Assembly: GCA_963745035.1 (NCBI GenBank)
Contig: CAVUVW010000014.1
Coordinates: 416,001-480,000 of the forward strand
Direction of reading: 5' to 3'
Origin: an uncultured delta proteobacterium
GTDB taxonomy: Bacteria; Desulfobacterota; Binatia; UBA9968
Length of the DNA stretch: 64,000 bases
Position 1 is the first letter of the stretch. Each line of letters begins with the position of its first letter. The notes under the pieces were generated by a model, which did no database searches, was not told where the DNA came from, and was given only the letters and a program-made list of their open reading frames with translations. Positions 35,381 to 38,724 of this stretch are shown here, one piece after another. The position numbers and the translations under genes are program-made.

Positions 35381-36728
<1,348 letters not shown>

Positions 36729-36938
36729 CGCGAAATCGGCTCTGGCGAAACAAGAATCAAGGTTGTTCTGCTCCTGAGAGCGGCCGGCGCGGGCGCGGGA
36801 TGAGCTTGCAGTGAATAAAACACGCTGTCGTTGTAAGCACGCTTCAGTTCACCGTCATTGCTTCTATTATGCCGGCAGGCGTGTTCAACAAAATTCGACC
36901 ATGCGAGTCGAAATATTTTCTAAAATGATATTTTTTTC

Positions 36939-36968
36939 TTGACATACAAGTTGTTGTGCCTTAATAAT
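36939..36968 (+). promoter_or_regulatory. Sigma70-type promoter of the Lys-rich microprotein gene
   Basis: TTGACA-N18-AATAAT with AT-rich upstream region. Confidence 0.65.
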
Positions 36969-37085
36969 CGAAGCACCTACAAAATATGGGAGGGTTTTTG
37001 GTACGAGATTTGTCTTCGCCTGAGTTACGCTTTAACGCCTGTCAACTGAAAAGCCCACCCGCGGAATCCTAATAAGGAGGTGCTT

Positions 37086-37136
37086 ATGGCTGCTAAGAAG
37101 AAAGCCAAAAAGAAAGCCAAAAAGAAAAAGAAGTAA
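37086..37136 (+). CDS. 16-aa Lys/Ala microprotein MAAKKKAKKKAKKKKK
   Basis: Strong SD TAAGGAGGT, then ATG 4 nt later; mixed AAG/AAA codons; own promoter and terminator. Confidence 0.75.
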   Translation: MAAKKKAKKKAKKKKK

Positions 37137-37218
37137 GCACGAATTTGTGAGGTGGTTGTGGTTGTGGTTTAAACCCTCCTTACTCTCAGGCGACAAGGTA
37201 ACCGTTCTGGTTGCCTAA

Positions 37219-37262
37219 TACACAGCGCCCTCCGACACCCAATCGGAGGGCCTTGTGTTTTC
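37219..37262 (+). terminator. Intrinsic terminator after the microprotein gene
   Basis: gccctccga-cacccaa-tcggagggc followed by cttgtgtttt. Confidence 0.65.
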
Positions 37263-37423
37263 AGTGGTCCGCGCGCGTTTCCATTCTCCAAAATTAATCT
37301 TGCCGCTGTGCGGCTTTGACAAGCCGCCGAGATGTAACTCGCCCAAAACTTCACGCGGCGGCTAGACATCCGCTGAGTCCGTCGGTATTGCGCCGCTCGG
37401 AGCAGTTGGTTAGAGTGCTCTCC

Positions 37424-37990
37424 ATGAAACTCGTGGCTTTTGATTGCAGCCTCAGGATCGCGCTTGCTCTCGCGGCGAGCCTGATCGCGCTGAGCCGCGC
37501 GCCGGCGTGGAGTCAAGCGAAAGTCGACTATAAAGTCGTGCCGATTCTGCAACCGATGAAGGACAACGCGCCGACGCCGGATTTTAATTTGGCCACTCCG
37601 GACGGAAAGAAGCTCTCGCTCAAGGATTTTCGCGGCAAAGTCGTGTTGCTGAATTTCTGGGCGAGCTGGTGCGTGCCCTGCCGCGAAGAGATGCCGGCGA
37701 TGGAGAAGCTCTACCAGGAATACAAGCAGAAGAATTTCGTCGTGCTCGCGGTCGCCGTCAAAGACCGCAAGCAAGACGCCATCGATTTCGTCAAGGAGCT
37801 GAAACTGACCTATCCGATTGCGCTCGATCCCGAAGCGCAAGTCGGCACGCTCTACGGCGCCTGGGGATTGCCGGCGACGTATCTGATCGGCCCGAAGGGT
37901 GAAGGCTTGGCGCGCGGTTGGGGTCCGGCGGATTGGTACAATCAAGCCACGCGCAAGCTGATCCAAGATCTCGTCGACGGCAAGAGATGA
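37424..37990 (+). CDS. TlpA/ResA-family thiol-disulfide oxidoreductase
   Basis: '[16 protein letters not shown]', 'GLPATYLI'. Confidence 0.9.
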
Positions 37991-38724
37991 CCGAAGTCAA
38001 CGTCTTCGTGGCCTTCGCCGCGGGTGTCTTCTCCTTTCTCTCTCCCTGTGTTCTGCCGCTGATCCCATCCTATCTCTCGTTCGTTTCCGGCGTCTCCCTC
38101 GATGAGATGCGCGGCGAGCAGGGGCGCCTGCGGGTGCGCTCGCGGGTGGTGCTCAACTCGCTGGCGTTTATCGTCGGTTTTTCCTTGGTGTTCGTCTCCC
38201 TCGGCGCATCGGCAAGTTTTCTCGGTGGCCTTTTTTTAAATTATCGAAATGCCATCCGCATTCTCGGCGGCGTATTCGTGCTGCTGGTAGGACTTTATCT
38301 TGTCGGTGTTTTCAAAATCGCCGCCCTCGAGCGCTACCTGCAGTTCGATTTGAAAGACAAGCCGGCCGGCTATCTCGGCTCGGTGCTGGTCGGCATCACC
38401 TTCGCCGTGGCCTGGACGCCCTGCGTCGGACCGATCCTCGGCGCGACCCTGGCGCTTGCCAGCACCGCCGGCGAAGTGAGCCGAGGCACGGTGCTGCTGA
38501 GCAGCTACGCCGCAGGCTTGGCGCTGCCGTTTTTTCTGAGCGCCTTGGCCATCAACTCGTTTTTACGATTCTCGCAGCAGCTTCGGCCGTACATCCAAGC
38601 CATCCATATCGGCGGCGGGCTGCTCTTGATTATCGTCGGCATTCTGCTGATCACGGACTATATGACCTTGCTCAACGCCTACGCGCTGCGTTTTACTCCG
38701 CAATGGCTGCTCCAGCGCCTTTAA
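37987..38724 (+). CDS. ccdA: Cytochrome c biogenesis protein CcdA
   Basis: 'SFLSPCVLPLIP', 'WTPCVGPILG'. Confidence 0.92.
   Translation: MTEVNVFVAFAAGVFSFLSPCVLPLIPSYLSFVSGVSLDEMRGEQGRLRVRSRVVLNSLAFIVGFSLVFVSLGASASFLGGLFLNYRNAIRILGGVFVLLVGLYLVGVFKIAALERYLQFDLKDKPAGYLGSVLVGITFAVAWTPCVGPILGATLALASTAGEVSRGTVLLSSYAAGLALPFFLSALAINSFLRFSQQLRPYIQAIHIGGGLLLIIVGILLITDYMTLLNAYALRFTPQWLLQRL

What the first reader, a model, noticed from the sequence alone, without database searches (positions are those of the whole stretch)
36939..37262. Stand-alone transcription unit for a 16-aa polycationic peptide (MAAKKKAKKKAKKKKK)
Seen: consensus -35, strong SD (TAAGGAGGT), 11 Lys in 16 residues with mixed AAG/AAA codons, and a terminator. 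It is below normal gene-calling thresholds. Inference: a highly expressed nucleic-acid-binding microprotein (histone H1/Hc1-tail- or protamine-like nucleoid condenser, small ribosomal protein, or polyphosphate/RNA counter-ion). It is not placed like an attenuator leader, since no lysine genes follow.
Basis: partly seen in the sequence, partly recalled or inferred. Interest (0 to 1): 0.7.

Follow-up and report, generated by a model that had tools for sequence, protein, structure and literature searches.

The report
Tiny poly-lysine gene with looped mRNA
A real, conserved, separately transcribed mini-gene in uncultured soil bacteria (class Binatia) encodes a 16-residue peptide made almost only of lysine, apparently the shortest form of a histone-H1-like family, and gene finders miss it.

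Summary
Window 36939-37262 carries a near-consensus sigma-70 promoter, a 110-nt 5' UTR, the SD TAAGGAGGT, the ORF MAAKKKAKKKAKKKKK (ATG 37086, stop 37134-37136), a 125-nt 3' UTR and an intrinsic terminator. It is the only SD-preceded Lys-rich micro-ORF in the 7.43-Mb genome.

The unit is conserved in three orders of class Binatia. The coding signature is clear: 15 of 16 third codon positions vary, against 4 and 3 of 16 at positions 1 and 2, and length variants of 13-40 aa all stay in frame. Contigs from four RNA libraries cover it.

Both UTRs are conserved. An invariant 8-10-bp helix, (C/U)GCCUGAG with CUCAGGC(G/A), joins the 5' and 3' UTRs around the ORF.

In a sister family the same locus holds an 84-aa histone-H1-like KKAPAKK-repeat protein. 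I therefore read the peptide as a minimal H1-like polycation that binds nucleic acid; this is inferred, not shown. The main rival is a lysine-sensing leader, because in sister lineages an alpha/beta hydrolase gene starts 10-45 nt after the terminator.

No Rfam, Pfam, NCBIfam, PDB or literature match was found.

The parts
36918..36938 (+). A/T-rich block upstream of the -35 hexamer (CTAAAATGATATTTTTTTC), probably an UP element
   Evidence: Conservation among relatives begins here. Reading it as an UP element rests on recalled knowledge of UP elements; it was not tested.
36939..36968 (+). Sigma-70-type promoter: TTGACA, 18 nt, AATAAT. The predicted start of transcription is near 36975.
   Evidence: 11 of 12 matches. 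The -35 hexamer is invariant across relatives. The -10 varies only among good hexamers at a fixed distance: TATAAT, TATACT, TAATCT in this order, and TATGAT or TATACT in two other orders. The RNA 5' end is not established.
36988..36996 (+). G-box GGGAGGGUU in the 5' UTR (SD-like)
   Evidence: Nearly invariant. It is complementary to the C-box: 96% of cells paired in 36 sequences, with changes on one side only.
37017..37024 (+). 5' strand of the long-range helix, CGCCUGAG
   Evidence: Predicted by RNAalifold. 99.7% of cells are paired: 7 invariant pairs and 1 covarying pair (CG 28, UG 4, UA 3, other 1).
37053..37060 (+). C-rich block GCCCACCC, which can pair locally with the SD
   Evidence: RNAalifold hairpin. 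98.3% of cells paired, no change on both sides.
37073..37081 (+). Shine-Dalgarno sequence TAAGGAGGT
   Evidence: AAGGAGGT is invariant in the 26 sequences of alignment A1 and the 36 of A2.
37086..37136 (+). Micro-ORF with stop codon: MAAKKKAKKKAKKKKK
   Evidence: Intact in 27 of 27 related loci. Substitutions fall almost only at third positions and indels stay in frame.
37146..37170 (+). G/U-rich tract after the ORF (UGUGAGGUGGUUGUGGUUGUGGUUU)
   Evidence: The G/U-rich character is kept in relatives while the sequence varies. In two other orders a G-rich tract sits in the 5' UTR instead. Its role is unknown.
37172..37182 (+). C-box AACCCUCCUUA (anti-SD-like) in the 3' UTR
   Evidence: It is complementary both to the G-box and to the SD (96.4% of cells paired). 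No covariation separates the two partners.
37185..37192 (+). 3' strand of the long-range helix, CUCAGGCG
   Evidence: CUCAGGC is invariant in the 36 type-I (A2) and 21 type-II (A3) aligned units.
37196..37216 (+). Small 3' hairpin (AGGUAACC / GGUUGCCU)
   Evidence: 6 of 8 pairs show changes on both sides.
37227..37262 (+). Intrinsic terminator: stem 37227-37251 plus a U-rich tail
   Evidence: 5 of 9 pairs show changes on both sides.

Best explanation
This is a genuine, independently transcribed and translated micro-gene. A strong sigma-70 promoter drives a roughly 290-nt mRNA. Its only product is a 16-residue Lys/Ala peptide. The peptide is the shortest form of a length-variable family (13-84 aa) of Lys/Ala/Pro-rich, histone-H1-tail-like polycations held at one locus in class Binatia. 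I infer that it acts by charge: it coats or bridges nucleic acid (nucleoid DNA and/or RNA) as an abundant, genetically encoded polycation. The mRNA is closed into a panhandle by an invariant 8-10-bp helix between the 5' and 3' UTRs. SD-like G-boxes and anti-SD-like C-boxes lie around the helix. I infer that this structure stabilises the message and/or tunes how often the ORF is translated. Shown: the signals, the conservation, the coding signature, presence in RNA libraries, the complementarity of the helix with limited covariation, and orthology of the locus with an H1-like gene. Inferred: what the peptide binds, its abundance, and the role of the panhandle.
For: (1) Signals: promoter, SD, ORF and terminator are all present.
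(2) Conservation: the roughly 350-nt unit was found in 28 of 41 relatives, that is genus 21/24, a second family 5/5 and a third family 1/11 (a 28-nt match only). It was also found in 18 of 20 genomes of a second order and in about 16 of 25 of a third order (18 matched; 2 of the 18 had only non-poly-K matches, as one search showed). RpoB identity to this genome is 77-81% for those orders, against 61% for another class.
(3) Coding: among 36 distinct units the variable columns are 4/16, 3/16 and 15/16 at codon positions 1, 2 and 3. Fifteen units encoding the identical peptide use 10 different nucleotide versions, and all 13 variable sites are at third positions. Lengths of 13, 15, 16, 17, 19 and 24-40 aa are all in frame, and the stop varies between TAA and TAG.
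(4) Uniqueness: it is the only SD-preceded Lys-rich micro-ORF in 7.43 Mb.
(5) RNA libraries: contigs from 4 runs of 4 studies lie on 36910-37305. One is a 230-nt contig at 100% identity (36986-37215) in a run of 38 M letters. Another is a 191-nt contig (36918-37108) with no differences.
(6) H1-like kinship: in the family that lacks the unit, the locus between the ExbB-like gene and the alpha/beta hydrolase holds an 84-aa ORF, MAAAKKKAPAKKK.... It scores 39.0 bits against a cut-off of 40 for Pfam HC2, and E 6.8e-10 for NCBIfam hist_H1_lk_Burk. Peptides of the other two orders share AKKKAPAKK.
(7) Panhandle: RNAalifold found the helix independently in two alignments. It is 99.7% paired, with one pair covarying as CG/UA/UG, and 10 bp are paired in 21/21 units of the other orders.
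Against: No binding, abundance or translation experiment exists, and Binatia are uncultured. The window peptide has no Pro and is too short for any profile test. Its likeness to H1 tails may be only compositional, and the 84-aa relative itself stays under both curated cut-offs. The contigs cannot show RNA ends, strand or level. Contigs of three studies begin at 36917-36920, upstream of the predicted -35, so either the start of transcription is misplaced or DNA or read-through RNA is in those libraries. The long-range helix is almost invariant, so only one pair gives covariation. The G-box/C-box, C-box/SD and SD/GCCCACC pairings cannot be told apart. In sister lineages a hydrolase gene starts 10-45 nt after the terminator, which fits a leader-and-attenuator reading too.
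Confidence: 0.6

Rival explanations
1. Lysine-sensing leader peptide. In this reading, translation of the run of Lys codons reports lysyl-tRNA supply or elongation status, and the terminator at 37227-37262 is an attenuator. Read-through into the downstream genes is what gets regulated: the alpha/beta hydrolase in most lineages, and tlpA-like plus ccdA-like genes here. The peptide itself would be a by-product.
For: The unit has a short ORF with 11 Lys codons of 16, followed by a conserved intrinsic terminator. In a second order, 11 of 12 loci have the hydrolase directly downstream on the same strand. Its start lies about 10-20 nt after the U-tract in two loci and 44 nt after it in a sister genus, which leaves no room for a promoter of its own. 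The hydrolases downstream of units from different orders are homologous: 26% identity at E 2e-23, and 38% over 47 aa at E 9e-10.
Against: The unit is fully conserved in this genus although the hydrolase is gone. The hydrolase was not found in G000 (92.6% complete). Only 3 of 24 congeners gave weak matches (29-32% identity), two of them with stop codons. Here 160 nt separate the terminator from the next ATG. Neither RNAalifold run predicted an antiterminator that competes with the terminator. The helix strands lie 62 nt before the ATG and 48 nt after the stop, out of reach of a ribosome on the ORF. None of the downstream genes belongs to lysine metabolism. The peptide keeps non-Lys features (AKKKAPAKK) and grows to 84 aa at the orthologous locus. 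Poly-Lys micro-ORFs of distant lineages have no shared downstream gene.
Confidence: 0.15
2. Ribosome-associated micro-protein. In this reading the peptide is a single basic helix that sits in rRNA, like bTHX, bL36 or eukaryotic eL41, or is an accessory factor bound to ribosomes.
For: The size and charge resemble those proteins (recalled, not tested). The promoter is strong with an A/T-rich upstream block, as in genes of the translation apparatus (this interpretation is recalled).
Against: No family match was found in NCBIfam or Pfam for 12 relatives of 21-52 aa, and a 25-aa relative gave no PDB chain match. Distribution is patchy within one order: 0 of 5 nearly complete (97-99%) genomes of a sister family carry any such ORF, and DNA search found 0-1 of 11. 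Length varies from 13 to 84 aa, which is unlike a protein fitted to a fixed rRNA pocket. bS21 is present whether or not the unit is present.
Confidence: 0.12
3. The RNA is the functional product, for example a regulatory small RNA whose C-box mimics the anti-SD and titrates SD sequences. The ORF would be incidental, or would serve only to load ribosomes.
For: The UTRs are as conserved as the ORF, with invariant boxes and a panhandle. The C-box CCCUCCUUA resembles the 3' end of 16S rRNA (recalled).
Against: Third-position-only variation and in-frame indels show selection on the reading frame. The C-box is missing from the units of two other orders. Distant lineages keep similar peptides with unrelated UTRs. 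No Rfam family matches.
Confidence: 0.08

Closest known systems
Bacterial histone-H1-like Lys/Ala/Pro-rich proteins and tails (Chlamydia Hc1/Hc2, Pfam PF07382; NCBIfam NF038053 'histone H1-like DNA-binding protein'; the tails on HU/HupB, PhaM and AlgP are recalled)
   Same: The composition is Lys with Ala, plus Pro in the longer forms, with KKAPAKK-type repeats. The 84-aa protein at the orthologous locus scores E 1.2e-9 on HC2 and E 6.8e-10 on NF038053. Its database relatives carry the same kind of repeat attached to DUF6496 or HU domains (one search does not bear on this).
   Different: The known proteins have 100-200 residues or are tails on folded domains. This one is a free 13-40-residue peptide, 16 aa here and without Pro. 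The scores of the 84-aa relative stay under the curated cut-offs (39.0 vs 40; 39.5 vs 80). The dedicated panhandle mRNA has no counterpart that I know of.
Tiny basic ribosomal proteins (bTHX, bL36, bS22, bL37, eukaryotic eL41); recalled
   Same: Very short, very basic peptides, probably a single helix, from highly expressed genes.
   Different: There is no sequence match, the distribution is patchy and the length varies widely.
Amino-acid leader peptides with transcription attenuators (trpL, hisL, pheL, thrL); recalled
   Same: A short ORF rich in one codon family, followed by an intrinsic terminator, with a promoter-less gene right behind it in sister lineages.
   Different: No competing antiterminator was found. 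The downstream genes are unrelated to lysine. The unit persists without the downstream hydrolase.
Pairing of a 3' UTR with the 5' UTR of the same mRNA, as in Staphylococcus aureus icaR, where a C-rich 3' UTR motif pairs with the SD; recalled
   Same: A C-rich, anti-SD-like box in the 3' UTR is complementary to the SD over 7-8 bp. A long-range 5'-3' helix is also present.
   Different: Here the C-box has a second and stronger partner, the G-box (9 bp). The main closing helix does not involve the SD. No RNase III or translation data exist.

Membership tests
Histone H1-like nucleoprotein HC2 (Pfam PF07382) / NCBIfam NF038053 | Profile score at or above the curated cut-off | tested here: not met
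   The window peptide (16 aa) is below the tool's 20-aa minimum and could not be scanned. The 84-aa protein of the orthologous locus (L211:786-1037) scores 39.0 bits against 40 (Pfam) and 39.5 against 80 (NCBIfam). Twelve relatives of 21-52 aa matched no such family.
Histone H1-like nucleoprotein HC2 (Pfam PF07382) / NCBIfam NF038053 | Lys/Ala/Pro-rich repeats of the KKAPAKK or PAKKA kind | tested here: inconclusive
   The repeats are present in the 84-aa ortholog and as one AKKKAPAKK copy in the 24-40-aa forms. The window peptide has only K and A in an AKKK period.
Histone H1-like nucleoprotein HC2 (Pfam PF07382) / NCBIfam NF038053 | Binds and condenses DNA | not testable with these tools
   This needs gel-shift or condensation assays with synthetic peptide.
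Leader peptide with transcription attenuator | Short ORF enriched in codons of the sensed amino acid, followed by an intrinsic terminator | tested here: met
   11 of 16 codons are Lys, and the terminator lies at 37227-37262.
Leader peptide with transcription attenuator | An antiterminator that competes with the terminator and whose formation depends on ribosome position in the ORF | tested here: not met
   Neither consensus fold shows one. The conserved long-range strands lie 62 nt before the ATG and 48 nt after the stop.
Leader peptide with transcription attenuator | Downstream genes belong to the metabolism of that amino acid | tested here: not met
   Here the downstream genes are AhpC-TSA/Redoxin (tlpA-like) and DsbD_TM (ccdA-like). 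Elsewhere it is a generic alpha/beta hydrolase.
Small basic ribosomal proteins (bTHX, bL36, bS22, bL37) | Sequence match to a ribosomal protein family or to a chain of a solved ribosome | tested here: not met
   No ribosomal family matched among 12 relatives in NCBIfam or Pfam. A 25-aa relative gave 0 PDB chains at E up to 10.
Small basic ribosomal proteins (bTHX, bL36, bS22, bL37) | Present throughout the clade that has it | tested here: not met
   Not found in 5 of 5 nearly complete (97-99%) genomes of a sister family with a loose pattern. The DNA search found 1 of 11, and that was only a 28-nt match.
Any Rfam RNA family | Covariance-model match at the gathering score | tested here: not met
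   cmscan of 35500-38500 at E up to 10 gave 3 matches. All were far under gathering and none lay inside the unit.

The most novel reading that the evidence does not exclude
Stand-alone poly-lysine micro-genes may be a widespread, unannotated class of genetically encoded polycations, a peptide counterpart of polyamines or protamines. Each lineage would have its own strong promoter and structured mRNA. The Binatia form described here would be one family of that class. Its mRNA panhandle with SD-like and anti-SD-like boxes would set the dose of a peptide that is toxic in excess. Of these, 63 were Lys/Arg-rich ORFs of 60 aa or fewer. Carriers tested in four other lineages had RpoB only 45-68% identical to this genome's.
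Probability: 0.35. Interest if true: 0.85.

Novelty: new variant of a known kind. Interest (0 to 1): 0.7.

Why it matters
Gene finders and family libraries miss ORFs of 13-40 codons, and trypsin-based proteomics would destroy this peptide. A conserved product that appears to be highly expressed in a globally common, uncultured soil lineage has therefore gone unseen. If the peptide is an abundant nucleic-acid polycation, it bears on how these cells compact DNA and balance charge. It would also give a minimal natural model of histone-H1-tail function, which can be tested with a 16-residue synthetic peptide. The invariant 5'UTR-3'UTR helix defines a new candidate class of structured bacterial mRNA that can be probed with compensatory mutations. 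The scan also shows similar micro-ORFs in distant lineages, so small-protein surveys should look for them.

Tried and rejected
- **Rfam:** nothing in the unit. A c4-a1b1 match at 37294-37330 has E 0.16 and 18.7 bits against 46.7, so it is chance.
- **Protein families and structures:** NCBIfam and Pfam found nothing for 12 relatives. PDB phmmer found nothing.
- **The search for homologous proteins:** I used it only for the 84-aa relative.
- **Literature:**
  - Four full-text searches found no paper on such peptides. Their terms were lysine-rich/small protein/ribosome/bacteria/microprotein; the strings MAAKKK, KKKAKKK, AKKKAKKK and MAKKKAKK; lysine-rich/sORF/Ribo-seq/bacterial/highly basic; and Binatota/Binatia.
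  - I read only listings and abstract starts from these.
  - Passages of PMC10117765 (found by term) held nothing relevant.
  - Supplements were not opened.
- **Spread over three phyla, rejected:**
  - Record titles call some carriers Polyangiaceae, Limnocylindria, Syntrophobacter or Chloroflexota.
  - RpoB identity places the Polyangiaceae-labelled genome and four genomes of the order containing the Limnocylindria-labelled one at 77-81%, as for other Binatia, against 61% for another class; the Limnocylindria-labelled genome itself gave no RpoB match.
  - One order also shares a genome with the 'same class' set.
  - The Syntrophobacter and Chloroflexota titles were not checked.
- **Phylum-wide pattern scan:** the pattern was too loose. 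Only 3 of the 26 listed matches (in 24 of 401 genomes) were poly-K units.
- **Replacement of bS21 by the peptide, rejected:** bS21 is present in 22/24, 5/5 and 10/11 genomes of the three families.
- **AAA-rich codons as a slippery signal:** the usage is ordinary.
- **Neighbours of alpha-proteobacteria-type units:** no shared theme.
- **L078:** a 10-bp inverted repeat lies outside that unit's promoter and terminator. I did not count it as helix covariation.
- **Reads:**
  - The stretches 36700-36888 and 37321-37500 had no cover in the four runs laid.
- **Complex prediction and structure prediction:** not used, because a 16-residue polycation gives no meaningful model and I make no binding claim for a protein pair.

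Full report
**What is in the window**

The stretch 36939-37262 reads as a complete transcription unit.
- The promoter is TTGACA (36939-36944), 18 nt, then AATAAT. It matches 11 of 12 positions and is the only promoter-like site in 2.2 kb, against 0.5 +/- 0.7 in shuffles.
- A 5' UTR of about 110 nt follows, then the SD TAAGGAGGT (37073-37081).
- The ORF is ATG 37086 to TAA 37134-37136 and reads MAAKKKAKKKAKKKKK.
- A 3' UTR of about 125 nt ends in a terminator: stem 37227-37251, then a U-rich tail.

Rfam has nothing in the unit. In the whole 7.43-Mb assembly (58.1% G+C) there are 17 ORFs of 10-60 aa with at least 40% Lys. Two of the 17 are nested starts of this ORF, and only its ATG form has an SD. 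The AAA/AAG mix is ordinary, since AAA is 46% of Lys codons genome-wide.

**Who has it**

Record titles of matching contigs name the organism as Candidatus Binatia.

A BLAST search with 401 nt found the whole unit in 28 of 41 relatives.
- In the same genus it was found in 21 of 24 genomes. The three misses are 60, 88 and 91% complete.
- In a second family it was found in 5 of 5.
- In a third family it was found in 1 of 11, and that was only a 28-nt match.

A pattern for the 5' strand plus SD plus ATGGC found it in two further orders: 18 of 20 genomes in one and 18 of 25 in the other. In the second, 2 of the 18 genomes had only matches that one search showed not to be poly-K ORFs.

The titles of some carriers say Polyangiaceae or Limnocylindria. 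RpoB identity to this genome is 81% for the Polyangiaceae-labelled genome. It is 77-80% for four genomes of the order that holds the Limnocylindria-labelled one, which itself gave no RpoB match. Known members of the class give 79%, and another class of the phylum gives 61%. I therefore treat all panhandle-type units as Binatia and drop the idea of spread across phyla.

One unpublished genome (G005, locus L002) is a row in the alignments. Nothing rests on it alone.

**It is a coding sequence**

The ORF is intact in 27 of 27 loci first fetched. Across 51 loci there are 29 distinct nucleotide versions of the ORF.

In 36 distinct units of the window's type, the variable columns number 4, 3 and 15 of 16 at codon positions 1, 2 and 3. 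Fifteen units encode the identical 16-mer with 10 different nucleotide sequences, and all 13 variable sites are third positions.

Length changes are always in frame. They are 13, 15, 16, 17 and 19 aa in this order, and 19-40 aa in the other two orders. The longer peptides share ...AKKKAPAKK(G/K)(G/A)AKKKK. This is the pattern of a translated, selected peptide, not of an incidental frame.

**RNA evidence**

Contigs of four metatranscriptome runs from four studies lie on 36910-37305.
- One is a 230-nt contig at 100% identity (36986-37215) in a run of only 38 M letters.
- Another is a 191-nt contig without differences (36918-37108).

These are contigs from RNA libraries. They show presence, not strand, ends or level, and DNA can be in such libraries.

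In three studies the contigs start at 36917-36920, which is 19-22 nt upstream of the -35 hexamer. That position is also where conservation among strains begins. Assembly breaks, read-through RNA or carried-over DNA could all explain it. The 5' end therefore stays open.

The promoter reading itself is strong. TTGAC(A/T) is invariant, and the -10 changes only among good hexamers (TATAAT, TATACT, TAATCT, TATGAT) at a fixed distance across three orders.

**The mRNA is structured**

Both UTRs are conserved.

*The closing helix.* RNAalifold pairs (C/U)GCCUGAG (37017-37024) with CUCAGGC(G/A) (37185-37192), which encloses the SD and the ORF.
- In 36 distinct units, 99.7% of cells pair.
- Seven pairs never vary. 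The eighth shows CG 28, UG 4, UA 3, other 1.
- In 21 units of the other two orders, an independent alignment again gave this helix. There it is 10 bp, CUCGCCUG(A/G)G with CUCAGGCGAG, and it is paired in 21 of 21.

*Hairpin and terminator.* The small hairpin (37196-37216) and the terminator covary well: 6 of 8 and 5 of 9 pairs change on both sides.

*The boxes.*
- The G-box GGGAGGGUU (36988-36996) can pair with the C-box AACCCUCCU (37172-37180), with 96% of cells paired. Together with the closing helix this would form a pseudoknot.
- The same C-box fits the SD, with 96.4% paired.
- The SD also fits GCCCACC just upstream, with 98.3% paired.
- None of these three has compensatory changes, so I cannot say which forms.
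- The other orders lack the C-box. They carry a long G-rich tract in the 5' UTR instead.

The single-sequence fold has z = -2.9.

I infer that the panhandle protects the message and/or sets the translation rate. The near-invariance of the helix hints at sequence-specific recognition, but nothing tests that.

**Neighbours**

In this genus the unit is followed by a tlpA-like thioredoxin (37316-37990) and a ccdA-like gene (37918-38724) in 21 of 22 loci. A sigma-54 response regulator lies upstream in 15 of the 21 loci that include upstream sequence.

Elsewhere an alpha/beta hydrolase follows on the same strand.
- This holds in the second family, in a sister genus, in 11 of 12 loci of the second order and in 3 of 9 poly-K loci of the third order.
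- These hydrolases are homologous: 26% identity at E 2e-23, and 38% over 47 aa at E 9e-10.
- They have no specific family.
- The hydrolase start is 10-45 nt behind the terminator in several lineages, so the gene is probably transcribed by read-through.

That keeps a leader-and-attenuator reading alive. Against it, four points stand. The hydrolase is missing from this genome and from most congeners. No antiterminator is predicted. No lysine genes follow. The peptide has conserved non-Lys features.

**The clue to function**

In the family without the unit, the same locus can be recognised by its flanking genes: an ExbB-like gene, divergent and 58-59% identical, and the hydrolase at 38-43% identity. 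I fetched four such loci.
- One genome has an 84-aa ORF there, MAAAKKKAPAKKKAAAKKAAAKKAPAKK....
- One has a 17-aa basic ORF.
- Two have nothing.

The 84-aa protein scores 39.0 bits on Pfam HC2 (cut-off 40; E 1.2e-9) and E 6.8e-10 on NCBIfam hist_H1_lk_Burk (39.5 against 80). Its database relatives are HC2-type repeats, often attached to DUF6496 or HU domains.

The micro-ORF thus looks like the short end of a length-variable H1-tail-like family. This is resemblance by composition and by locus. It is not membership: the cut-offs are not reached, and the 16-mer cannot be scanned at all.

**Beyond Binatia**

- 63 of them are ORFs of 60 aa or fewer with at least 40% Lys+Arg.
- 23 of the 63 have both exact helix motifs, that is, they are of the Binatia type.
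- The others have their own conserved UTRs. Examples are a group of roughly 2-Mb genomes labelled alphaproteobacterial, a group labelled Dormiibacterota whose stop codon sits in a hairpin, and 25-52-aa forms in small genomes labelled Patescibacteria.

Four such carriers have RpoB only 45-68% identical to this genome's. Their labels are the depositors' and were not checked.

**Verdict**

The finding is real and not annotated. I found no match in the libraries or in the papers I could search. My confidence in each reading is:
- minimal H1-like polycation made from a panhandle mRNA: 0.6;
- lysine-sensing leader: 0.15;
- ribosome-bound micro-protein: 0.12;
- RNA-only function: 0.08.

Noticed in passing
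L023:1978-2799, L151:3624-4391, L152:1-276 (not in the window): The alpha/beta hydrolase that follows the unit in sister lineages has a conserved N-terminus (..PPEKxKFxxPxxLxHGLWxGxWxW). At the nucleophile elbow it reads GHSVGG in one order and AHDAA in another, so Ser is replaced by Asp. It has no specific family.
   Followed up: partly
Loci L067, L140, L095, L034, L055, L061 (record titles): Contigs that carry the Binatia-type unit are titled Polyangiaceae, Limnocylindria, Chloroflexota or Syntrophobacter. RpoB identity (77-81%) puts the two orders containing the Polyangiaceae- and Limnocylindria-labelled genomes in class Binatia. The other titles were not checked.
   Followed up: partly
L062, L081, L099, L107, L121 and L204-L208: A second family of poly-Lys micro-ORFs (18-25 aa) occurs in roughly 2-Mb genomes. 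It has its own conserved promoter and short 5' UTR (..ttgttgactc..acacaacat..cactctactcta..aggaggtcact ATG) and a 3' hairpin plus terminator. Its neighbours show no common theme.
   Followed up: partly
L033, L085, L146, L078: In poly-Lys units labelled Dormiibacterota, the last Lys codons and the stop codon pair with the sequence right after them (for example GAAGAAGUA / UACUUCUUC), so the stop sits in a hairpin. In L078 a 10-bp inverted repeat (TTCGTCTGAC / GTCAGACGAA) flanks the whole unit outside its terminator.
   Followed up: no
window 36917-36975: Contigs of RNA libraries from three studies begin at 36917-36920. This is upstream of the predicted -35 and is exactly where conservation among strains starts. 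The 5' end of the RNA is therefore unsettled.
   Followed up: partly
L212 (G034), upstream of the hydrolase: In one genome of the family that lacks the unit, a 17-aa basic ORF (MATKTRRSAKKRTIYDSS) lies at the orthologous position. It may be a decayed or diverged relative.
   Followed up: no
window 37294-37330: A weak Rfam match to c4-a1b1 (18.7 bits, gathering 46.7, E 0.16) lies just after the terminator. I take it to be chance.
   Followed up: no
L206 and L207 (minus strand, near the poly-Lys units): Large proteins of 750-783 aa with Lys/Ala/Pro-rich N-terminal ends (KAKAKPKAKPVAKKVAAKK...) lie near the micro-ORF in two of the roughly 2-Mb genomes. L207 contains a masked stretch.
   Followed up: no
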